IMG/VR virus record: IMGVR_UViG_3300031993_000068
Coordinates: 3,568-67,567 of that record
Reading direction: 5' to 3' (one strand)
Length of the DNA stretch: 64,000 nt
Source: a virus
Lineage: Duplodnaviria > Caudoviricetes
The notes under the pieces are model-generated. The model was not told where the DNA came from, did not search any database, and was given only the letters and a program-made list of their open reading frames with translations. The position numbers were made by a program, and so were the translations under genes. Of this stretch, positions 11,906-34,242 are shown piece after piece. Position 1 is the stretch's first letter. Every line of letters begins with the position of its first letter.

Positions 11906-12026
11906 GAACGAACGAATTGAACGAACGGACGAAGCGAATGAACGAGGCGAACGAACGACGAACGAACCAGTTTGAACGAATGGTTCTGAATGGTTGAATG
12001 GTTGAACGAACGGACGAATTTGAACG
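11906..12026 (+). repeat. GAACG-rich short repeat cluster
   Basis: 12 GAACG copies counted in ~120 bp, all on +. Confidence 0.9.
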
Positions 12027-14255: not shown

Positions 14256-15080
14256 ATGAACGCACTTTTTGAGGCCGTACAGACGCATGGAGGGGCGCAA
14301 GCGGCCACCATATCCAAGCACCTCCACAACGCCAAAATACGGGACTTCTGCGACCTTACACGGGCGGGAGTTATGAACCTCCGCGACGAGCTGCGGAAGT
14401 CCCTGGCTCCGTCCTCGGCAAAGACTGTCGCCGCCTCCCTGGTGGCACTCCTTCGCCGGTACGAGGACGAGGGACTAATCCCCTGCAAGGACTACGCGAC
14501 CATCCTCCGGCTCAAAGGGGAAGCACCCGTGAAAACCTACCTGAACGAATCGGAACTCGAACGACTTGAACGGGTGGCTACCCGAACGATTACCGAACGG
14601 ATCGTGCTGAACGAGTTTCTTGTCGGAACGAAAACGGGCGCACGATTGAGCGACATCCGCGAACTGACCGAGGAGAACGTGGACGGAACGACCTTGACCT
14701 ACACCTCGAAGAAAACGGGCATAACGGCGAGTATCCCTTGCTCGGACAGGACGGTGGCCCGTCTGCGTTGGCTTCGCTCGAACGGCAGGGAGGTGGACAC
14801 GGCGACCTTCAACAAGACGATTCGCCGACTGTGCAAGCGGGCGGGCATCGACGAGCAAGTGAAGGTGCATAAGGGTGGCAAGGACGAGGTAGGCCCGAAG
14901 TGGAAATTCATCTCCTCGCACTCCGCACGAATCAGCGTGGCGACCAACTTGAGCGCGAACGGCACTCCCCTGACGGACATACGAGATATTCTCGGTCACA
15001 CGGGAACGGCTATGACTTCGAGGTATGTTTGCCGCCGTGAGGTCAAATTGAACGAAAAATCGCTGGCACTTTTCAGATAA
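14256..15080 (+). CDS. Tyrosine recombinase, short form (no arm-binding domain)
   Basis: 274 aa; GARLSD, KKTG, HSAR, LGH and MTSRY give the full R-K-H-R-H-Y set. Confidence 0.9.
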   Translation: MNALFEAVQTHGGAQAATISKHLHNAKIRDFCDLTRAGVMNLRDELRKSLAPSSAKTVAASLVALLRRYEDEGLIPCKDYATILRLKGEAPVKTYLNESELERLERVATRTITERIVLNEFLVGTKTGARLSDIRELTEENVDGTTLTYTSKKTGITASIPCSDRTVARLRWLRSNGREVDTATFNKTIRRLCKRAGIDEQVKVHKGGKDEVGPKWKFISSHSARISVATNLSANGTPLTDIRDILGHTGTAMTSRYVCRREVKLNEKSLALFR

Positions 15081-16702: not shown

Positions 16703-17887
16703 GTGGCAGAATTGCTTGCTACCATGAACATCTACTACAACCTTACCTACCCGTCGCGGGAAATCTCCCCCATCCGGGTAATCATCACGCACCGAGGAAA
16801 GGTGTACCGAAAAGCCGTGGGACTGTCCGTCAAGAGCAAGAACTGGACGGGCAAGCGGAGCGGAAATGTCAAGATAGACTCCGCGCTCCGCGTCATCCTC
16901 GTGGGTCTGCAATCCACCCTTGACGAGTGGTCTGACGAGCAAGCCATTTTAAGGGCGTTAGAGCGCGTTCAAGACGGTGGTTGGATAGATGATACCACTA
17001 AAGTGGTAAACACGCGAAATACGCCCTCTTTTTGGTCTTATTGGGCATCCTGGGCAGAGAAGTCCAACCCTGCCAAACGCCAACGCAAAAATTCGATGGT
17101 CTTAATCCAACGGCTGATGGGAACGCAGCACAACTGGGATGACATTGATTCTGCCTTCTGCTTCAAGTTGCTTGAGAAGATGAATGACGAAGGATATTCC
17201 AAGAACTACCAAGGGAGCGTCATCGCCAAGATAAAGACCGTGATGAGCGAGGGGCAGAAACTCAAGTACCACAACAACTCCGAATACCGAGAGTTCAAGA
17301 AGCCGTCCAACGAAGCTGATACGGCATACCTCACACGCAAGGAACTGGACAAGCTCTGGAATCTCGAACTCACCTCCACCACGGAGAAGAACGCCCGTGA
17401 TCTACTCATCATCGGTTGCTATACGGGTGCGCGATGGGAGGACTTCTCCAAGTTCAGCCGTGACAATATCGTTGACGGCAAGTTCCGCTACATCCAGAGA
17501 AAGACTGGCGAAAGGGTTGTGCTGCCGTTATCCCCACGGCTCAAGGAAGCACTCAAACGCAACGGATGGGTAGCACCGAAGATGAATGACGTGGTGTTCA
17601 ATCGTGTTGTCAAGACCGTGTGCATGAAAGCCGGAATCAACGATATGGTGGAAGTCCGCAGAAGCAAGGGCAACCAGTTCGAGCATACACGGGAGCCGAA
17701 GTACAAGATGATTTCATCGCACACTTGCCGCAGGACTCTATGCACCCTACTCGACCAGGAGGGAGTGCCGATGCGCGAGATTATGACGGTATCGGGACAC
17801 AAGAACCTGGCATCGCTACTGAAGTATCTGCGGAAAAGTGAACGGGACACCGAGGAAATTTTTGGCAGGGTCAAATTTTTCAAATAA
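16703..17887 (+). CDS. int: Full-length tyrosine integrase (arm-binding + SAM-like + catalytic)
   Basis: N-terminal VYRKAVGLSV..KNW arm domain; GARWED, QRKT, HTCR, SGH, LLKY; probable ATG 16724. Confidence 0.9.
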   Translation: MAELLATMNIYYNLTYPSREISPIRVIITHRGKVYRKAVGLSVKSKNWTGKRSGNVKIDSALRVILVGLQSTLDEWSDEQAILRALERVQDGGWIDDTTKVVNTRNTPSFWSYWASWAEKSNPAKRQRKNSMVLIQRLMGTQHNWDDIDSAFCFKLLEKMNDEGYSKNYQGSVIAKIKTVMSEGQKLKYHNNSEYREFKKPSNEADTAYLTRKELDKLWNLELTSTTEKNARDLLIIGCYTGARWEDFSKFSRDNIVDGKFRYIQRKTGERVVLPLSPRLKEALKRNGWVAPKMNDVVFNRVVKTVCMKAGINDMVEVRRSKGNQFEHTREPKYKMISSHTCRRTLCTLLDQEGVPMREIMTVSGHKNLASLLKYLRKSERDTEEIFGRVKFFK

Positions 17888-26916: not shown

Positions 26917-27315
26917 ATGGACTTCCACCTAAGTAACACTACCGAAAGGGAGGTATTCTGCGAGTATCTGCGATGCCTCCCCGAAGGTAAGTCCTACGAT
27001 GTAAGCATACGGCTACACCGTGCAAAGCGAAGCAACGATGCCAATGCGTTGTACTGGAAATGGATAGGCATCATAGCCTCCGAAACGGGAAATGACCGCG
27101 AGGTCTGCCACAAGTTCTTCGCCAAGAAGTTCCTCGGCTATGATGTCCGCGAGTTCGGTAGCGAAAAGATTGCCGTGGTGAAATCCACCGCCAACTTGGA
27201 TACCGCACAGTTCTCGGACTACATGAACCAAGTGTCAGCCTTCGCATCGCAGGAACTCGGCATCGTGCTTCCGTCCCCCGATGACCAACTTTATTCAATG
27301 ATGAACCATGAATGA
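26917..27315 (+). CDS. ninB: NinB/Orf-like recombination protein
   Basis: KRSNDANALYWKW..IIA, KSTANL.TAQFSDYM.QV..FA..ELGI.LP.P. Confidence 0.75.
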   Translation: MDFHLSNTTEREVFCEYLRCLPEGKSYDVSIRLHRAKRSNDANALYWKWIGIIASETGNDREVCHKFFAKKFLGYDVREFGSEKIAVVKSTANLDTAQFSDYMNQVSAFASQELGIVLPSPDDQLYSMMNHE

Positions 27316-27655
27316 AACCGACATCATCCTCGCCCTGGAGTCAAGATGGGTGAGCCGCGAAGAACTCTGCACCATGCTCGGTACGAATGACCGCGCAGTC
27401 CGCGCCTTCATAGAGGACTTGAACATACGGCTCAAATCCCACGGCAAATGCGTACTCTCCACATCAAGCAAAAAGGGCTACCATGTAGGCAACCCTTGTT
27501 CGGACGAAGATGTGGCACTCGCCAATGCTATCCTTGAAGAACTCAAGAGCAAGGCAATCAGCATCTTCGAGCGCAGACAGTCGATTGAGAACTTCATCAA
27601 GTTCTCGGAGTCCGCGAAAGCCTCGGAAAGCGACATCCAACTGTCGCTCTTCTAA
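27308..27655 (+). CDS. wHTH-like hypothetical protein
   Basis: VSREELCTMLGTNDRAVRAFIE; ends QLSLF (clamp-binding-like). Confidence 0.6.
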   Translation: MNETDIILALESRWVSREELCTMLGTNDRAVRAFIEDLNIRLKSHGKCVLSTSSKKGYHVGNPCSDEDVALANAILEELKSKAISIFERRQSIENFIKFSESAKASESDIQLSLF

Positions 27656-28564: not shown

Positions 28565-29263
28565 ATGGCAAGAACAACGACTCCATTACAGGACGAGATA
28601 GCGCAGTTCCTTTCGGAGCATCCGCTATCGTCTGCCAAAGATGTCTGCGAGGGCATCGGCACTTACCCAGGCAGAGGGAAATCAACCATCAGCGTGGCCC
28701 TTCTCAAGATGTATCAAAATAGGAGGGCAACAAGAGAGCAAGATGAGGAAGGCGTTTATCGTTATGTCCTCAAGGCATCCCATCCACAAAACGAACTGAT
28801 TGACGCAGAGAAAGACCTTGGCATTGAGCATCAGATAGAGAATGATTCTCGGAATCGCGCAATAGAGGTCGCAAACGGATTCTTTCGCCTTCGGCACTTA
28901 ATGGATGGGATTCTTAGTTATATCGCGTCACATCCCAATAGTTCAGCAGAGGAAATTGCCAAGGCCCTCAATTTCGACTATTACGATGTAGGTGGGGCTT
29001 TGATTTATGCGTGGTCTCCAGACAAAATAGTCGGATTGGATCGCGCCGTTGACGAAGAAGGCGTACTGCGATACACATATACTCCTTGCGCCCCCACCAC
29101 GGAGGAAACAAGAAAATTGGTCAAGGTCAAGACCCTTGATGACTTTACTCCGCGAGAGATGTTCGCACATCTCAAAAATCTTGGATACAAGTGGAGCGCA
29201 AAGGCTCTCTACCATGAGAAAGTAACCGTTGAGCGCAACTTCGTTGACTTTGATAAGATATGA
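28565..29263 (+). CDS. Protein with two repeated wHTH domains
   Basis: Internal repeat REQDEEGVYRY / RAVDEEGVLRY. Confidence 0.65.
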   Translation: MARTTTPLQDEIAQFLSEHPLSSAKDVCEGIGTYPGRGKSTISVALLKMYQNRRATREQDEEGVYRYVLKASHPQNELIDAEKDLGIEHQIENDSRNRAIEVANGFFRLRHLMDGILSYIASHPNSSAEEIAKALNFDYYDVGGALIYAWSPDKIVGLDRAVDEEGVLRYTYTPCAPTTEETRKLVKVKTLDDFTPREMFAHLKNLGYKWSAKALYHEKVTVERNFVDFDKI

Positions 29264-29616
29264 GTAAGACCTTAGCCAATGCAACCATAGAGGAACTTGC
29301 CAAGGAACTTCTTGCCAAAGTCAAAAGCGAAATTATCTCCGAACTTCATCATGAGATAGAGGAGGAGTTTAGGCGACAGTTTGACTCGCACGATGTGCCT
29401 GACAAGTTTCTTACGCGACAGGAGGTCGCGGACGCTTTGGGTGTTAGTCTGCCAACCGTACATTCAATGATGAATAAGGGTAAGATTCCCTTCGTCAAGA
29501 TAGGCGCATCTACGCGAATACCCAAAAGTCAGTTTGACGAAGCTCTAAAAAAAGGACTTCGGAGATACCAACACAAACATAGACCGAGAAGAACTGATAA
29601 CATCAATAACATTTAA
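29260..29616 (+). CDS. Excisionase-like HTH_17 protein
   Basis: FLTRQEVADALGVSLPTVHSMMNKGKIP.VKIG.STRI. Confidence 0.85.
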   Translation: MSKTLANATIEELAKELLAKVKSEIISELHHEIEEEFRRQFDSHDVPDKFLTRQEVADALGVSLPTVHSMMNKGKIPFVKIGASTRIPKSQFDEALKKGLRRYQHKHRPRRTDNINNI

Positions 29617-29620
29617 GACA

Positions 29621-29788
29621 ATGGCAACCAAGAAACAACCCACAATTTTCCTCGCAAAGTTCAACCGTAGAAACGGCACGAGCATCGAAGAGGTCACGGT
29701 CAAGTGCAAGAAGGTCGGCGGCAAGTATGTCGCACTTGACGGAAACACATTCATCCCCGAATGGGCGAAGATAACACTCCCGTCATAA
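29621..29788 (+). CDS. Hypothetical protein (55 aa)
   Basis: Hand-translated MATKKQPTIFLAKF...; TAATG coupling to next ORF. Confidence 0.55.
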   Translation: MATKKQPTIFLAKFNRRNGTSIEEVTVKCKKVGGKYVALDGNTFIPEWAKITLPS

Positions 29789-30057
29789 TGGCCGAGTTCA
29801 TCATCATACAGTATTTCGTCACCGCGCTCGGCATCACATCGGCGCAGAAAGAGTACGCGATAGTCACCGCCAAGACCCTTCCCAACGGTGGGGTCAAGGC
29901 GGTTGTCAAGAACATCCCAAGAGAGGATGCGCTTGAGTACATCGAGGAAAAGAAACTCGTCCTTGCGATGGGGAGCAAGCACGGAAGGGTGTACGATACC
30001 CAAGACAAGAAGTTCCTCGCAAAGTACGGTGGGCGAATAGAGATACCAAGGATTTAA
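29788..30057 (+). CDS. Hypothetical protein
   Basis: 89 aa from the coupled ATG at 29788. Confidence 0.6.
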   Translation: MAEFIIIQYFVTALGITSAQKEYAIVTAKTLPNGGVKAVVKNIPREDALEYIEEKKLVLAMGSKHGRVYDTQDKKFLAKYGGRIEIPRI

Positions 30058-30100
30058 TCATTCACTTTTTAATATCAACTTTTCAAAAACACTAATTATC

Positions 30101-30721
30101 ATGGCAGCAAAGAAGAAGGCAGAGGAGGCCAATCTCCTCACCCAGATGGAAATTCGTACCATCACTTTCCGTATTGAGGGCGTTGCACCTCTTATCGTCA
30201 ACTGTTTCGGCCACGGTGTCGAAGTCCTGGAGGAAGTCACCGATGCAAAGGAAAAGGGACTCAAGAAGGCAGGAAAGGTGAAGCTGACTCCCGAAGAGGA
30301 GTACGCCAAGACCCTCTACTACCTTTCCGATGGTGTCCGCACCGGCTTCCCCGCAGTTGGATTCAAGTCCGCTATGGTTCGCGCAGGAAAGACTTGTGGC
30401 GAAGTCATGGTTGACCTCCGCACCAAGTTCCACGTTATCGCTGACGATCTCGACACGGGACTCATCGAAATCCACGGAGAGCCGAGGATGCGTTGCGATG
30501 TGGTGAAGGTCGGTGGCATCAGCAAGACCTCTTCCCCTCGTTATCGTGCCGAGTATCCTACTTGGTGGGCGAACATCACCATCCACTACCTTGAGGGCAT
30601 CATCACTCCCGAAAAGTTGCTCATGCTCCTCAATACCGCAGGGTTCACTTGTGGCGTTGGCGAGTGGAGGCCGGAGAAGTGCAACAGTGGCTCGTTCGGA
30701 CTCTTCCGCGTGGTCGGTTAG
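30101..30721 (+). CDS. Stand-alone RAMP/Cas7-like RNA-binding protein (Vipr-like candidate)
   Basis: 206 aa; beta1-like ITFRIEGVAPLIV; FPAVGFKSAM; terminal Gly-rich loop GFTCGVGEWRPEKCNSGSFGLFRV; abuts the pentamer array. Confidence 0.75.
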   Translation: MAAKKKAEEANLLTQMEIRTITFRIEGVAPLIVNCFGHGVEVLEEVTDAKEKGLKKAGKVKLTPEEEYAKTLYYLSDGVRTGFPAVGFKSAMVRAGKTCGEVMVDLRTKFHVIADDLDTGLIEIHGEPRMRCDVVKVGGISKTSSPRYRAEYPTWWANITIHYLEGIITPEKLLMLLNTAGFTCGVGEWRPEKCNSGSFGLFRVVG

Positions 30722-30725
30722 TCAC

Positions 30726-31263
30726 GGCAGGAGGGGTTAGGCGCGTCGAGTTTAGGTATTGCTCGGCTCGTCACGCCTCGGTGCGGTTGGGGTCAGTTTA
30801 GTTTAGGTTAGGCTCGTCACGGTGCGTTCCGGCGGAGTCCGGCTTGGCAGGATTGGTAGGGTCTGGTGGGGCAAGGTATGGCTCGGTCAGTTAGGCTTCG
30901 GCTCGGTTAGGCGCGGCAGGAGAGGTAAGGCCCGTTACGGAGGGGTTTGGTCAGTTTCGTCCCGGCAAGGTGAGGTAGGGTTAGGCAGGACAGGCGAGGT
31001 ATGGTATGCTTAGGCTTGGCTTGTTGTGGTGTGGCGAGGTGGGGCAGGATTGGCACGGATAGGCTCGGTCAGTTCGGGTGAGTTTTGGCGTGATGCGTTG
31101 TGGCACGGCAAGGTGCGGTAAACTTCGGCAGGATCGGCATGGTTCGCTTCGTTTGGCTTCGATAGGGTTACGCACGGCGTGGTACGGCGAGGCTCGGCAT
31201 GGCAGGAATGGCTTGGTCTGTCCCGGAGAGGCACGGTTAGGTATCGCTTGTCAGGGCATGGCA
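30726..31263 (+). repeat. GGY-NN pentamer array, 7 units delimited by GGCA|GGA (putative guide-RNA array)
   Basis: GGCAGGA at 30726, 30846, 30915, 30984, 31043, 31127, 31201 and terminal GGCA at 31260; 101 pentamers (61 GGY, 18 GTY, 10 GGA, 12 other). Confidence 0.95.
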
Positions 31264-31287
31264 CGTTTTATTTAATCTTCAATCAAT

Positions 31288-31758
31288 ATGTATAAGTACG
31301 CAGTAGATAGACTTTACAAAGTCCCCGCAGAAGCGGCGGGAAAGGAACTTGAGAGAATACGAATCAAGTACGGCACTCTCAAGCCGAAAAACGTGGTAGA
31401 GGAATCCAAAGACGAATCCTCGGTGCTTCATTCCATCTTCCAATGGGATAACGAAAAGGCCGCAGATGCTTGGCGCATAAGGCAAGCACAAGACCTTATC
31501 CGAAATGTTATCGTCACCGTCAACAAACAAGAGGTCAAGTGTAATGTCCGCGCCTATGTCAATGTCGCAGACAGTCCGTTCAACCTCGCATCATACGTCC
31601 CCATAGACGAAGCACTCCGAAACGAGTACACGCGCAAGCAACTCCTTGACGATGCCAAGCACGATATGGAGAGCTTCGTTGCCAAGTATCGGACTCTTGA
31701 CGAACTCGGAGGCATTGTCAGTCAAATGGAACTGTTCTTAGGCGATGACAAACTTTGA
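31288..31758 (+). CDS. Putative accessory protein downstream of the array
   Basis: 156 aa; LHSIFQWDNEKAADAWRIRQAQDLIR motif; 24 nt after the array. Confidence 0.7.
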   Translation: MYKYAVDRLYKVPAEAAGKELERIRIKYGTLKPKNVVEESKDESSVLHSIFQWDNEKAADAWRIRQAQDLIRNVIVTVNKQEVKCNVRAYVNVADSPFNLASYVPIDEALRNEYTRKQLLDDAKHDMESFVAKYRTLDELGGIVSQMELFLGDDKL

Positions 31759-32149
31759 GAAATTCATCATGTACGGTCTCGCGGCTATCAATGCCGAGCA
31801 GAACGGACTTGCAGTTGGCGAGGTCTTGTCGAAGTGGTTGGAGGGTATGGAGACAATCTGGCCCTCCACCGCCAAGACAAAGAAAGGCGAGGATGCGGAT
31901 GTTCTTGAGATATACGATGAATATCCGTCACGCGACCCCAACAACGGCAATCGTCCCACCGGCAAGGGACAACGCGACAAGTCCACCATCAAGCGACTCC
32001 TTGACGATGGCAAGTACACAAAGGACGAACTGTTGCAGATAATACGGCAGGAAGTCAAGACAAGAACCGAAACGGGAGCGTTCCTAAGAAACTTCTCAAC
32101 GCTCCTGAATAACCTCCCCGACATCGAGGACGAAGACCTCTTTGAATAA
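31745..32149 (+). CDS. Replication-associated protein (initiator C-terminal-like / loader candidate)
   Basis: EIYDEYPSRD and FLRNFSTLLNNLPD; coupled to the primase-helicase. Confidence 0.6.
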   Translation: MTNFEKFIMYGLAAINAEQNGLAVGEVLSKWLEGMETIWPSTAKTKKGEDADVLEIYDEYPSRDPNNGNRPTGKGQRDKSTIKRLLDDGKYTKDELLQIIRQEVKTRTETGAFLRNFSTLLNNLPDIEDEDLFE

Positions 32150-34242
32150 TGACTGACGAGCAAATCAGACAAGTTTACGCATGGTGGCAGACCTTTCAAA
32201 AGGGTAGGCTCACGGAGATACGCATACTCGGCAAGTACACCCAAAGCGGATACTACAAGAATGTAGAGAACATCATCCGCGACCTGGGCCAGTGCGAACA
32301 CCAAGGAGGAGCCGTGTACTTCGTGTTCAACACCCCCAAGGATGCGGTCTATGGACGAAAGCAGTCCGAGAAGATGTCATCCGAGAACAAGATGGCCACC
32401 ACGCAGGACGGAGACATAGCCAAGCGCAACTTCGTACTCGTGGATCTTGACTGCGTAACCGGCGTGTCTGATGTCAACTCCACCGAAGAGGAAAAAGCCT
32501 TCGCCCTCGCCAAGTGCCGCGAGGTGTTCCGATACCTCCGCAAAGAGGGATTCAATGACGGCATAGTCGATGACTCTGCCAACGGCTACCACATCTTCAT
32601 ACCGTGCGACCTTGACAACACGGACGAGAACACGGAACTCGTCAAGCGGTTCTTGTACGCGCTTTCGATGATGTTCTCCGATGAACACGTCAAGGTGGAC
32701 ACATCGGTCTATAACGCATCGCGCATCGCCAAACTCCCTGGGACATTCTCGGCGAAGGGTAGCGAGTACAGTGCGGAGCGACCGCGAAGGATGTGCAGGG
32801 TCTTGTCCGTGCCGCCGGAGATAATACCCACGCACCGTTCATACTTTGAGCGCATCGCGGCGTTGTACCCCGAAGAGCAAGCACCATCGCGGTTCAACAA
32901 CTTCTCCACGCAACGCTTCGACCTTGACGATTTCATCCAACGCCACGGCATACAAGTTACGCGCAAGTTGGAGGTAGCGGACGGTACGCGGTACATCCTC
33001 GACCACTGCCTTTTCAATCCCAACCACAAGGGAAAGGATGCGGTCTTGTTCCAACACAAAAGTGGTGCGGTGGCGTACTTCTGCTACCACGCATCCTGCC
33101 AAGGGAATGATTGGCGCAAACTCCGCGAGACCCTTGAACCTGGGTGCTACGATAGGCGGTACGGCGCACAACCACAACTGCAACGCACTTGGAAACGCAA
33201 CGAGGTCAATCCCCAACCACCGCAACCAGAAACGCCCGACAAGGGGAAGAAATGGAAGCGGATGAGTGAAATCCCCAAGCCGGAGTTCGACCCATCGCAG
33301 TACATCCCCACGGGCATACCGCAGTTCGATGACCTCTTGATAGGATTCAAGCGCAAGCAAGTGTCCCTATGGTCGGGATACCGTGGTAGCGCAAAGTCCA
33401 CGATGATAAGCCAACTTATCCTCAACGGGGCGCAACTCGGCTACAAGTCTGCGGTCTGGACGGGGGAACTTTCCGATGGCGAGTTCAAGACATGGCTCTA
33501 CCTCCAAGCGGCGGGCAAGAACCACAACCGCAAGTCACAGTTCAATATGTTCTACTACACGCCGCAGGATGTGGCGAAGAGGATTGACCCGTGGCTTGAC
33601 CAATATGTCCTCCTATACAACAACGAGTATTCCGACCAATACGGACAACTCGAAGCTGACATCCGCGAGGTGGTGCGGACGGAACACATAGACCAGGTGT
33701 TCCTCGACAACCTCACCATCTTGGACATAGATGACTTGGACACGGACTTGTGGAAGGCGCAGAAAGCCTTTATGAAGCGCGTACATGACCTTGCGATAGA
33801 GCTGAACATCCACATCCATTGTATCGCGCATCCCAACAAGACGGGCGGTTTCCTGCGTATGAACTCCATATCGGGAAGCGGTCACTTGCCGGACATCGCG
33901 CAGAACGTGTTTATCATCCACCGCATCAACCAGGACTTCGACAAATTGAGCGCGGAGTTCCTTGGTAAGAACACCCGTCAAGAGATACTTGATTCCGCGT
34001 GTTCCAATGCCGTGGAGATATGCAAGTGCCGCGACAAGGGTGCTGCCACCGACCACTTCATAAAGTTGTACTTCGAGTTGGAAAGCAACCGCTTGAAGAA
34101 TGACATATCGGAGCAAGTGCATTACAACTGGCAAGACCCCGCCGACATCCCCCCCTGCGCCCGATCCCGAAACGGGAGGTTGGAACAGTGCCGAGGAGAT
34201 GCGGAAGTGGGCGGCACAAAACGAGGAGGATATGCCCGATGA
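32149..34242 (+). CDS. Fused primase (AEP-like) - SF4/DnaB-like helicase
   Basis: VLVDLD, DSANGYH, C-x-F-x3-H...CYHASC Zn motif; Walker A SGYRGSAKST; FLDNL; IHCIAHPNK. Confidence 0.85.
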   Translation: MTDEQIRQVYAWWQTFQKGRLTEIRILGKYTQSGYYKNVENIIRDLGQCEHQGGAVYFVFNTPKDAVYGRKQSEKMSSENKMATTQDGDIAKRNFVLVDLDCVTGVSDVNSTEEEKAFALAKCREVFRYLRKEGFNDGIVDDSANGYHIFIPCDLDNTDENTELVKRFLYALSMMFSDEHVKVDTSVYNASRIAKLPGTFSAKGSEYSAERPRRMCRVLSVPPEIIPTHRSYFERIAALYPEEQAPSRFNNFSTQRFDLDDFIQRHGIQVTRKLEVADGTRYILDHCLFNPNHKGKDAVLFQHKSGAVAYFCYHASCQGNDWRKLRETLEPGCYDRRYGAQPQLQRTWKRNEVNPQPPQPETPDKGKKWKRMSEIPKPEFDPSQYIPTGIPQFDDLLIGFKRKQVSLWSGYRGSAKSTMISQLILNGAQLGYKSAVWTGELSDGEFKTWLYLQAAGKNHNRKSQFNMFYYTPQDVAKRIDPWLDQYVLLYNNEYSDQYGQLEADIREVVRTEHIDQVFLDNLTILDIDDLDTDLWKAQKAFMKRVHDLAIELNIHIHCIAHPNKTGGFLRMNSISGSGHLPDIAQNVFIIHRINQDFDKLSAEFLGKNTRQEILDSACSNAVEICKCRDKGAATDHFIKLYFELESNRLKNDISEQVHYNWQDPADIPPCARSRNGRLEQCRGDAEVGGTKRGGYAR

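What the first reader, a model, noticed from the sequence alone, without database searches (positions are those of the whole stretch)
30726..31263. Non-coding GGY-NN pentamer array: a programmable guide cassette that is not CRISPR
Seen: 538 bp of 5-nt periodicity starts immediately after the stop of a RAMP-like gene. Each pentamer is a conserved triplet plus a free dinucleotide. Of 101 pentamers, 61 are GGY, 18 GTY and 10 GGA, and 91 have a pyrimidine at triplet position 3. A 4-nt GGCA phase shift followed by GGA splits it into 7 units of 120, 69, 69, 59, 84, 74 and 59 nt (4+5n; unit 1 has one extra G near 30790). A terminal GGCA at 31260 closes it. NN strings differ between units: U2 TT AG CT GG AA AT TC CA AG TC TC TA GC; U3 GA AA CC AC GG TT CA TC CC AA GA AG TA; U4 CA GA AT AT TA TT TT GT GT GA GG; U5 TT AC TA TC CA CG GA TT GT GC GT AC AA GC AA TC; U6 TC AT TC TC TG TC AG TA AC GT AC GA TC AT; U7 AT TT CT CC GA AC TA AT TT AG AT. 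Inference: the scaffold is interleaved with the information, so each unit could be a processed guide with one RAMP subunit per pentamer. From memory this matches the recently reported VIPR (Vipr + GGY/NN RNA) systems; I cannot check that reference here.
Basis: partly seen in the sequence, partly recalled or inferred. Interest (0 to 1): 0.97.

Follow-up and report, generated by a model that had tools for sequence, protein, structure and literature searches.

The report
Phage VIPR guide-RNA array, staggered type
This 538-base five-letter rhythm is the guide-RNA array of a VIPR system, a CRISPR-related RNA-guided DNA silencer first described in 2026 preprints, carried by a complete temperate phage; it is a well-supported new example of a published kind, and one guide appears aimed at a gene of sibling phages that lack the system.

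Summary
Window 30726-31263 holds 101 pentamers (61 GGY, 18 GTY, 10 GGA, 91 with a pyrimidine at position 3). GGCA|GGA junctions cut it into units of 120, 69, 69, 59, 84, 74 and 59 nt.

The reading is right. The 206-aa gene ending 4 nt upstream has a Cas7/Csm3-like predicted fold. It matches the solved SUSP1 Vipr protein and keeps its GGY-contact residues.

About 73 of 80 viral loci with a homolog carry a period-5 G array beside it on the same strand. The 4-nt GGC-N junction recurs in relatives down to about 30% identity. This is the 'staggered vrRNA array' of the VIPR preprint.

A 156-aa gene (31288-31758) is a conserved third part, present in 90 of about 106 loci. It is not SUSP1 vap1.

Arrays of 77-92% relatives share scaffold and leader but almost no units. 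Across 366 guides from this family, only the published 1-nt-skip rule gives excess near-perfect matches (16 against about 4).

Window guide U1a matches 20-21 of 24 positions, in frame with the skip at wobble, in a gene of sibling phages lacking the cassette. Its own allele scores 18. The other guides have no convincing target.

Transcription and cutting were not testable. The scan has noted VIPR 71 times before on other DNA.

The parts
30101..30721 (+). vipr gene: 206-aa lone RAMP (Cas7-like) protein
   Evidence: The PDB sequence search hits 36pp_D 'SUSP1 Vipr protein' at E 8.5e-6, or 8.3e-10 with profile A1. hhalign gives 97.6% probability. The AF2 model has pLDDT 81.5, and its top Foldseek PDB hits are Csm3/Cas7 of type III, type VII Cas7 and Cas7-11. 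R149, C184, E188, W189 and R190 align with SUSP1 R138, C173, D177, W178 and R179, the GGY contacts. There is no Pfam, NCBIfam or PADLOC match; phrog_4652 matches.
30716..30729 (+). leader: two pseudo-repeats overlapping the vipr stop codon, then the first GGCA
   Evidence: Read directly. The same TCA[CA]-GGCA leader follows the stop codon in L001, L126, L127 and L128. No room is left for a separate promoter.
30730..30849 (+). unit 1: 12 repeats (U1a, 30730-30789), one extra G (30790), 11 repeats (U1b, 30791-30845), then GGCA
   Evidence: Read antisense, U1a matches 20-21 of 24 NN positions in a gene of sibling phages.
30850..30918 (+). unit 2: 13 repeats plus GGCA
30919..30987 (+). unit 3: 13 repeats plus GGCA
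30988..31046 (+). unit 4: 11 repeats plus GGCA
31047..31130 (+). unit 5: 16 repeats plus GGCA
31131..31204 (+). unit 6: 14 repeats plus GGCA
31205..31263 (+). unit 7: 11 repeats plus the closing GGCA
31288..31758 (+). conserved 156-aa accessory gene (vap-like), starting 24 nt after the array
   Evidence: tblastn finds a homolog on the same strand next to vipr or the array in 90 of about 106 Vipr loci, in three gene orders. The AF2 model has pLDDT 95, with no solved fold above a helical-hairpin match. phrog_15946 matches; Pfam, NCBIfam and PADLOC do not. It is not homologous to SUSP1 vap1 (hhalign probability 0.25%).
31892..31927 (+). own allele of the site that guide U1a is predicted to hit in sibling phages (inside ORF 31745-32149); not part of the system
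   Evidence: 18 of 24 NN positions match, antisense, in frame with the skip at the wobble position. Sibling alleles score 20-21 of 24.

Best explanation
Window 30101-31758 is a three-part VIPR cassette (vipr, a tail-less 'staggered' vrRNA array, a conserved accessory gene). It sits in the replication module of a complete 67.6-kb temperate phage whose host is probably in Bacteroidota.

Inferred from the layout: one transcript runs from a promoter upstream of vipr through the array into the accessory gene.

By analogy with the SUSP1 structures: one Vipr protomer binds each pentamer, locks the GGY triplet and exposes the NN pair. The 4-nt GGC-A junction breaks the register, so each unit of 11-16 repeats carries its own filament.

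Each filament reads double-stranded DNA by the published 1-nt-skip rule (target xNN repeated) and blocks transcription there.

The targets are rival phages. In this clade they are sibling phages that share the replication module but lack the cassette, so the cassette works as a programmable weapon between phages. New specificities arise by gain, loss and duplication of whole units.
For: - **Protein.** It matches solved SUSP1 Vipr by sequence, and four of the five aligned GGY-contact residues are identical while the fifth is a D-to-E change. Its predicted fold is Cas7/Csm3-like. The family holds 2715 clusters at 50% identity.
- **Array.** Counts and periodicity are confirmed. About 73 of 80 viral loci with a homolog have a period-5 G array beside vipr on the vipr strand, and almost none on the other strand. 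The GGC-A-GGN junction recurs in 12 loci parsed, down to about 30% identity. The array RNA folds no better than shuffles (z +0.56), it has no Rfam match in this stretch down to E = 1, and the whole window has no match at gathering score. That fits a protein-coated strand.
- **Turnover.** The window, L001 (92% identical Vipr) and L126 (90%) share leader and scaffold but no unit. L127 and L128 share two units with different neighbours.
- **Code.** 366 unique guides were scanned against 818 kb of Vipr loci. Hits with at most 2 mismatches number 16 under skip 1, against 1-6 with shuffled guides. Skip 0 gives 5 against about 4, and skip 2 gives 2 against about 5.
- **Cross-targeting in relatives.** A whole 9-repeat unit of L126, bounded by two junctions, matches L127:1895-1921 at 18 of 18, in frame. 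Unit 1 of L001 matches 30 of 34 in a 115-aa gene of sibling phages. A second L126 unit matches 20 of 22 in the same gene, both with the skip at wobble.
- **Window guide.** U1a matches 21 of 24 on L279 and 20 of 24 on L280, L284, L285, L286 and L288. Its own allele scores 18, and shuffled guides never exceed 18. Those siblings carry other genes where the cassette sits here.
- **No self-target.** No guide reaches 80% on the phage's own genome.
- **Phage context.** Portal, tape measure and two tyrosine integrases are present, and the record has direct terminal repeats and is rated complete.
Against: - Nothing here shows that the array is transcribed, cut or bound.
- Seven of the eight guide segments (U1b and U2-U7) have no target above chance in IMG/VR seed scans, one metagenome scan, 401 genomes drawn from the order of a Bacteroidales MAG, or 174 kb of sibling phages.
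- The U1a target was found by following an 18-of-24 lead into homologs, so its significance is not independent. It is 83-88% matched, not perfect.
- About 40% of triplets are not GGY. The validated SUSP1 vrRNAs also carry TGT, AGT and GTT triplets.
- Unit 1 is irregular.
- E188 stands where SUSP1 has D177.
- The repression mechanism is carried over from a type II system with a different vrRNA layout and a different accessory protein.
Confidence: 0.9

Rival explanations
1. It is the same VIPR system, but the units are never cut apart. The array stays one long RNA, possibly still joined to the vipr and accessory messages. Separate Vipr filaments assemble on it, set apart only by the register break at each 4-nt junction.
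For: No ribozyme, hairpin or tail lies between units: no Rfam match in this stretch down to E = 1 or in the window at gathering score, and the fold is no better than shuffles. No nuclease domain is seen in Vipr or in the accessory protein. By its own wording, the preprint confirmed ribozyme arrays and single-guide loci by small-RNA sequencing, but not staggered arrays.
Against: The fig. S18 legend speaks of 'individual processed vrRNAs'. A perfect full-length match of a single junction-bounded unit (L126 to L127) shows that units act as separate specificities, but it does not tell cut from uncut.
Confidence: 0.2
2. It is a decaying or inactive array. The scaffold is eroding and the guides no longer work.
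For: About 40% of triplets are not GGY. Unit 1 has a +1 slip that may be a damaged junction. Seven of eight guide segments have no detectable target.
Against: vipr and the accessory gene are intact, with invariant contact residues. All seven junctions are perfect. The validated SUSP1 guides show the same degeneracy. Relatives at 77-92% identity keep the same grammar with different content, which implies ongoing selection. U1a has a plausible live target.
Confidence: 0.05
3. The stretch codes for a glycine-rich peptide, or it is a DNA-level element such as a G-quadruplex tract, an origin or a packaging signal, and not an RNA guide.
For: Open frames of 63-65 codons exist on the plus strand. GG every 5 nt could form two-tier quadruplexes.
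Against: A 5-nt period with -1 shifts cannot keep a reading frame. Unit number and length differ between 90%-identical relatives. The feature is tied to a Vipr gene and its strand in about 100 loci from many phyla. NN strings decode to targets under the published rule.
Confidence: 0.01

Closest known systems
VIPR systems with 'staggered' vrRNA arrays (bioRxiv 10.64898/2026.04.26.720920, fig. S18 legend; type number not readable here)
   Same: A lone Vipr RAMP gene and GGY/NN pentamers, with units abutting so that the end of one guide marks the start of the next with a 1-nt offset. The context is viral and an accessory gene is adjacent.
   Different: No feature tested here differs. This locus adds a specific junction (GGC-A-GGA), an array that starts 4 nt after the vipr stop and ends 24 nt before the accessory gene, and candidate targets in sibling phages. 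The preprint did not confirm this architecture by small-RNA sequencing.
Type II VIPR of Escherichia phage SUSP1 (NC_028808.2: Vipr agp039, vap1 agp038; PDB 36pp)
   Same: The Vipr protein is homologous (hhalign 97.6%) with matching G-loop and thumb contacts. Repeats are GGY/NN, with 9-16 per guide. The 1-nt-skip rule holds in this family too. The role is conflict between phages.
   Different: Each SUSP1 guide is a separate unit with a 5' handle and a 3' tail of about 40 nt with a pseudoknot. Here there is no tail, only 4 nt between units. The accessory protein is unrelated to vap1. Vipr identity is detectable only in the C-terminal third.
Class 1 CRISPR backbone subunits (Cas7/Csm3/Cmr4, type VII Cas7, Cas7-11)
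   Same: The predicted fold is shared (Foldseek probability 1.0, E 6e-5 to 1e-3, TM about 0.5). One subunit binds per short RNA period, with a thumb that flips bases.
   Different: There is no CRISPR repeat-spacer array, no other cas gene and no Rfam CRISPR repeat in the window. The period is 5 nt, not 6. The guide information is interleaved with the scaffold.

Membership tests
VIPR system | Vipr protein: minimal RAMP with RRM core, glycine-rich loop and thumb, related to described Vipr proteins | tested here: met
   PDB hit to SUSP1 Vipr. Cas7/Csm3-like model. The G-loop motif CGVGEWRP is invariant in 30 homologs.
VIPR system | Residues that lock the GGY triplet (SUSP1 R138, C173, D177, W178, R179) | tested here: met
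   R149, C184, E188, W189 and R190 align with them. One is a conservative D-to-E change, and all are invariant in alignment A1. The equivalents of H17 and K33 could not be aligned.
VIPR system | Adjacent co-oriented non-coding array of GGY/NN pentamers, triplet conserved and NN hypervariable | tested here: met
   (window). (homologous loci).
VIPR system | Guides of about 9-16 repeats | tested here: met
   Units have 13, 13, 11, 16, 14 and 11 repeats. Unit 1 has 12 + 11 around a slip. The 437 guides parsed from the family peak at 9-12 repeats.
VIPR system | Accessory (vap) gene next to vipr | tested here: met
   The 156-aa gene is conserved in 90 of about 106 loci. Which of vap1-6 it is cannot be read from the text held. 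It is not vap1.
VIPR system | Targets follow the 1-nt-skip rule, with skip bases at codon wobble positions and no self-targeting | tested here: met
   Family-wide excess under skip 1 only. In-frame hits for L126, L001 and window U1a. No self hit at 80% or more. For the window itself only one of eight guide segments has a candidate.
VIPR system | vrRNAs are expressed and co-purify with Vipr; binding represses transcription | not testable with these tools
VIPR system | Not part of a CRISPR-Cas locus; mostly viral or proviral | tested here: met
   The record is a complete phage with terminal repeats. The window has no CRISPR-like repeats and no Rfam hit. Neighbours are replication and regulator genes.
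VIPR type II (SUSP1-like) | Each vrRNA capped by a conserved 3' tail of about 40 nt with a pseudoknot; vap1 accessory | tested here: not met
   Units are separated by 4 nt only. SUSP1 tails are shown for contrast. The accessory is unrelated to vap1.
VIPR staggered-array architecture | Successive guides abut with a 1-nt offset, the end of one marking the start of the next | tested here: met
   Seven -1 phase shifts at GGC-A-GGA. The same holds in relatives with GGC-A-GGC, -GGT and -GTC.
VIPR ribozyme-interspersed arrays | Hammerhead ribozymes between guides | tested here: not met
   No Rfam match in 29000-33000 down to E = 1, nor at gathering score in the whole window.

The most novel reading that the evidence does not exclude
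Tail-less staggered arrays need no dedicated processing signal or nuclease. The 4-nt GGC-N junction alone sets guide boundaries by breaking the register of the Vipr filament. The guides are carved, or merely partitioned, out of the middle of an mRNA that also carries vipr and the accessory gene. The widespread 156-aa accessory protein of unknown fold is the factor that matures or loads them, or that acts on the bound target. New guides arise by duplication and drift of whole units aimed at alleles of the phage's own replication genes in sibling phages.
Probability: 0.25. Interest if true: 0.6.

Novelty: new member of a known kind. Interest (0 to 1): 0.35.

Why it matters
VIPR is a months-old discovery whose tested examples are type II systems with tailed guides. 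This locus is a clean, complete-genome example of the untested 'staggered' layout in a probable Bacteroidota phage.

The comparison made here gives three usable results.
- The 1-nt-skip code also holds in this branch of the family.
- Junction-bounded units behave as whole guides.
- In this clade the guides are aimed at replication-module genes of sibling phages that lack the cassette, with the carrier's own allele escaping by a few changes.

That makes self versus non-self discrimination between near-identical phages directly testable. It also points to cultured relatives (Gordonia and Mycobacterium phages) in which the same vipr and accessory pair could be studied.

Tried and rejected
**Target hunts for the window's guides**
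- IMG/VR exact seed scans: U2 with 18 bases gave 0 hits. U5, U6, U3, U4 and U7 with 16 bases gave 5, 13, 16, 99 and 22 hits. U1b gave 0.
- Extensions beyond the seeds were at chance level.
- The best U5 hit was L108/L109 at 26 of 32, in an intergenic region of a 31%-GC RP13-like phage. It was judged unconvincing.
- The U6 hit L115/L116 (24 of 28) lies in a 64%-GC phage, with the skip base at codon position 1.
- The U7 hit L273 (20 of 22) is within chance for a collection that size.
- One metagenome scan for U2 gave 9 seed hits, all with chance-level extensions.
- U3 at full length with up to 3 mismatches found nothing in 401 genomes drawn from the order of the Bacteroidales MAG behind L082, in three Bacteroidota MAGs, or in L001's record for U2.
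- None of this shows that targets are absent.

**Accessory protein**
- No fold match for the whole protein in Foldseek PDB. The VIA-align wide search gave at best Z 5.1 over a 45-residue helical hairpin, and residues 1-101 were barely tested.
- BFVD gave only uncharacterised viral proteins, and the protein atlas only unnamed viral clusters.

**Other**
- The sigma-70 promoter and terminator scan was no better than shuffles, and it does not cover Bacteroidota promoters.
- The VIPR type number could not be assigned, because the preprint's figures and supplementary tables are not held.
Only the replication-module hit of U1a stood.

Full report
**1.

Window 30726-31263 has a lag-5 base identity of 0.49, against 0.29 in shuffles (z = 10.8). 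It also has the strongest period-5 G signal in the 64-kb window.

The motif GGCAGGA stands at 30726, 30846, 30915, 30984, 31043, 31127 and 31201, and a last GGCA stands at 31260. Read in phase, there are 101 pentamers: 61 GGY, 18 GTY, 10 GGA, and 91 with a pyrimidine at position 3. Positions 1-3 carry 1.64, 0.88 and 0.65 bits. Positions 4-5 carry 0.09 and 0.08 bits, and all 16 dinucleotides occur there.

A phase-tracking parse shows that each junction is a -1 shift, that is, a 4-nt 'GGC-A' in place of a pentamer. The one exception is inside unit 1, where an extra G at 30790 gives a +1 shift after 12 repeats. The array begins 4 nt after the stop codon of the upstream gene (30719-30721), whose last codons already run in phase.

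**2. The upstream gene is a Vipr**

The 206-aa product of 30101-30721 has no Pfam, NCBIfam or PADLOC match. It does hit the solved 'SUSP1 Vipr protein' (PDB 36pp) at E 8.5e-6, at 8.3e-10 with a 30-sequence profile, and at hhalign probability 97.6%.

The aligned stretch holds the residues that the cryo-EM preprint names as GGY contacts. SUSP1 R138, C173, D177, W178 and R179 correspond to R149, C184, E188, W189 and R190 here, all invariant among homologs.

An AlphaFold model (pLDDT 81.5) finds Csm3/Cas7 of type III, type VII Cas7 and Cas7-11 as its best solved matches. The family is large, with 2715 clusters at 50% identity.

**3. Comparative evidence ties array, gene and strand together**

Of 80 IMG/VR loci with a homolog, about 73 have a period-5 G tract next to the gene on the gene's strand. 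Almost none have one on the other strand.

The 'GGC-A-GGN' junction recurs in the close clade as GGCAGGA (L001, L003-5, L020). In relatives at 30-40% identity it appears as GGCAGGC, GGCAGGT or GGCAGTC.

[quoted passage not shown] By its own wording, that preprint confirmed the ribozyme and single-guide layouts by small-RNA sequencing, but not this one.

The array RNA is no more structured than shuffles (z +0.56). There is no Rfam match in this stretch down to E = 1, nor in the whole window at gathering score, so no hammerheads. SUSP1's guides each carry a 5' handle and a tail of about 40 nt. The locus is therefore not type II.

**4. A third conserved part**

The 156-aa gene at 31288-31758 starts 24 nt after the closing GGCA. 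Homologs lie on the same strand beside vipr or the array in 90 of about 106 loci from many phyla.

Three gene orders occur: vipr-array-gene, array-vipr-gene and gene-array-vipr. The pair also occurs in cultured Gordonia and Mycobacterium phages.

Its model is confident (pLDDT 95), but it matches no solved fold beyond a helical hairpin. It is unrelated to SUSP1 vap1. I treat it as a vap of unassigned number. Its role is unknown.

**5. Arrays turn over unit by unit**

Relatives with 77-92% identical Vipr (L001, L126, L127, L128) keep the same leader, the same first triplet GGA and the same junction. The window, L001 and L126 share no unit.

L127 and L128 share two units, with a further unit ahead of them in L128. 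L126 shows junction variants GGCT|GGA and GGCC|GGA. L005 has two adjacent, nearly identical units, which suggests that guides are born by duplication.

**6. The code was tested here**

I parsed 437 guides (366 unique) from 101 loci. I scanned them against 818 kb of Vipr-bearing phage DNA under skip rules 0, 1 and 2, with order-shuffled guides as controls.

| Skip rule | Real guides, hits with at most 2 mismatches | Shuffled guides |
|---|---|---|
| 0 | 5 | about 4 |
| 1 | 16 (one perfect, one with a single mismatch) | 1-6 per run |
| 2 | 2 | about 5 |

The perfect hit is a whole 9-repeat unit of L126, bounded by two junctions. It matches L127:1895-1921 inside a 216-aa gene, at the peptide KMAETDAIS, with every skip base at the wobble position. 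That gene matches phrog_7838, annotated 'exonuclease', and to my eye looks like a Rad52-type annealing protein. L126 itself carries an ERF-type gene instead.

Other hits lie in vipr genes of other loci (L022, L075, L007). The preprint reported the same.

**7. What the window's own guides aim at**

No guide matches its own genome at 80% or better, and the best self scores equal those of shuffled guides.

The best self score was U1a at 18 of 24. It lay antisense and in frame on the 134-aa gene just downstream (31892-31927, peptide DADVLEIYDEYP).

Homologs of that gene occur in sibling phages. These share the same sliding clamp, ERF, 115-aa and 133-aa genes and DnaB-like helicase. The two whose flanks were fetched also share the S24 repressor and both integrases. 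All carry other genes where the VIPR cassette sits here.

On their allele (DADVEEIYQAYP and variants) U1a scores 21 of 24 (L279) and 20 of 24 (L280, L284, L285, L286, L288). Shuffled guides never exceed 18.

In the same siblings, unit 1 of L001 scores 29-30 of 34 on the 115-aa gene, and 27 of 34 on the window's own copy at 27437-27487. A second L126 unit scores 20 of 22 on that gene, again with the skip at wobble.

The picture is consistent: phages of this clade aim guides at replication-module genes of siblings. Because I reached the U1a target by following a lead, I rate it as plausible, not proven.

U1b and U2-U7 gave nothing above chance. This covers eight IMG/VR scans, one metagenome scan, 401 genomes from the order of a Bacteroidales MAG, and 174 kb of sibling DNA.

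**8. Context**

The record is a complete 67,567-bp phage with direct terminal repeats. It has a portal, a tape measure, two tyrosine integrases, a sliding clamp, an exonuclease and a RuvC-like resolvase.

A Bacteroidota host is inferred from two results. The nearest cultured relative of the helicase is a Bacteroides phage at 37% identity. The three closest genomic Vipr homologs are all in Bacteroidales or Bacteroidetes MAGs.

**9. What is shown and what is inferred**

- Shown here: the sequence grammar, the protein's family, the conserved trio of parts, unit turnover, the skip-1 signal in the family, and the candidate sibling target.
- Taken from the preprints for SUSP1: one protomer per repeat, triplex-type DNA binding, and transcriptional silencing.
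- Inferred and untested: co-transcription with vipr, cutting or partitioning at the junction, and any role for the accessory protein.

**10. Verdict**

This is a real feature, correctly read by the first stage. It is a new member of a published kind (VIPR, staggered array). The scan has noted VIPR 71 times in at least 52 other genomes. Interest is moderate. It rests on the untested maturation of tail-less arrays and on the sibling-phage targeting.

Noticed in passing
L280:8284-10402, L281:7596-9742, L284:9191-10402 (sibling phages): Close relatives of this phage keep the same replication module. Between the 115-aa and 133-aa genes they carry other genes (246-269 aa, or 86 + 59 aa) in place of vipr, array and accessory. 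That spot is therefore a variable cassette site.
   Followed up: partly
L126:5313-5357 and L127:1895-1921: A whole 9-repeat guide of one relative matches a 216-aa gene of another relative at 18 of 18, in frame. The gene matches phrog_7838 ('exonuclease') and looks like a Rad52-type annealing protein. The guide's own phage uses an ERF-type gene instead.
   Followed up: yes
window 27437-27487 (115-aa gene 27308-27655): Unit 1 of the 92%-related phage L001 matches this site of the window's phage at 27 of 34, and sibling phages at 29-30 of 34. VIPR-bearing relatives may also aim at each other.
   Followed up: partly
L022:4670-4734, L075:4793-4842, L007:3838-3882: Guides of other Vipr loci match inside the vipr genes of further loci. 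L022 scores 24 of 26 on L047 and L050. L075 scores 19 of 20 on L040. L007 scores 16 of 18 on L006 and L066.
   Followed up: partly
L005:4730-4850: Two adjacent units are nearly identical, differing at a few NN positions. This looks like a guide duplication in progress.
   Followed up: no
window 30791-30798, 30885-30892, 30949-30956, 31067-31074: The octamer GGTCAGTT recurs in four units (U1b, U2, U3, U5) at different repeat positions. It is unexplained.
   Followed up: no
window 30775-30793: A weak terminator-like hairpin followed by a T-rich run sits exactly at the +1 slip inside unit 1. The slip could also be a junction that lost three bases.
   Followed up: no
window 14256-15080 and 16703-17887: There are two tyrosine integrase genes. 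The siblings also have two, plus an S24 repressor-type gene. The phage group is therefore temperate.
   Followed up: partly
window 11906-11967: A tandem run of GAAC(G) units, about 15 copies, lies in an intergenic stretch. An earlier first-reader note on this genome also flags it.
   Followed up: no
phage records NC_031249.1:32744-34108 (Gordonia phage UmaThurman) and NC_028751.1:37713-38719 (Mycobacterium phage Quico): Cultured actinophages carry both a Vipr homolog (32-33% identity) and the 156-aa accessory homolog, both annotated as hypothetical. They are ready laboratory models for this vipr and accessory pairing.
   Followed up: no
L282:16657-17811: One sibling phage carries an IS605 OrfB/TnpB-type gene (Pfam Cas12f1-like_TNB).
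   Followed up: no
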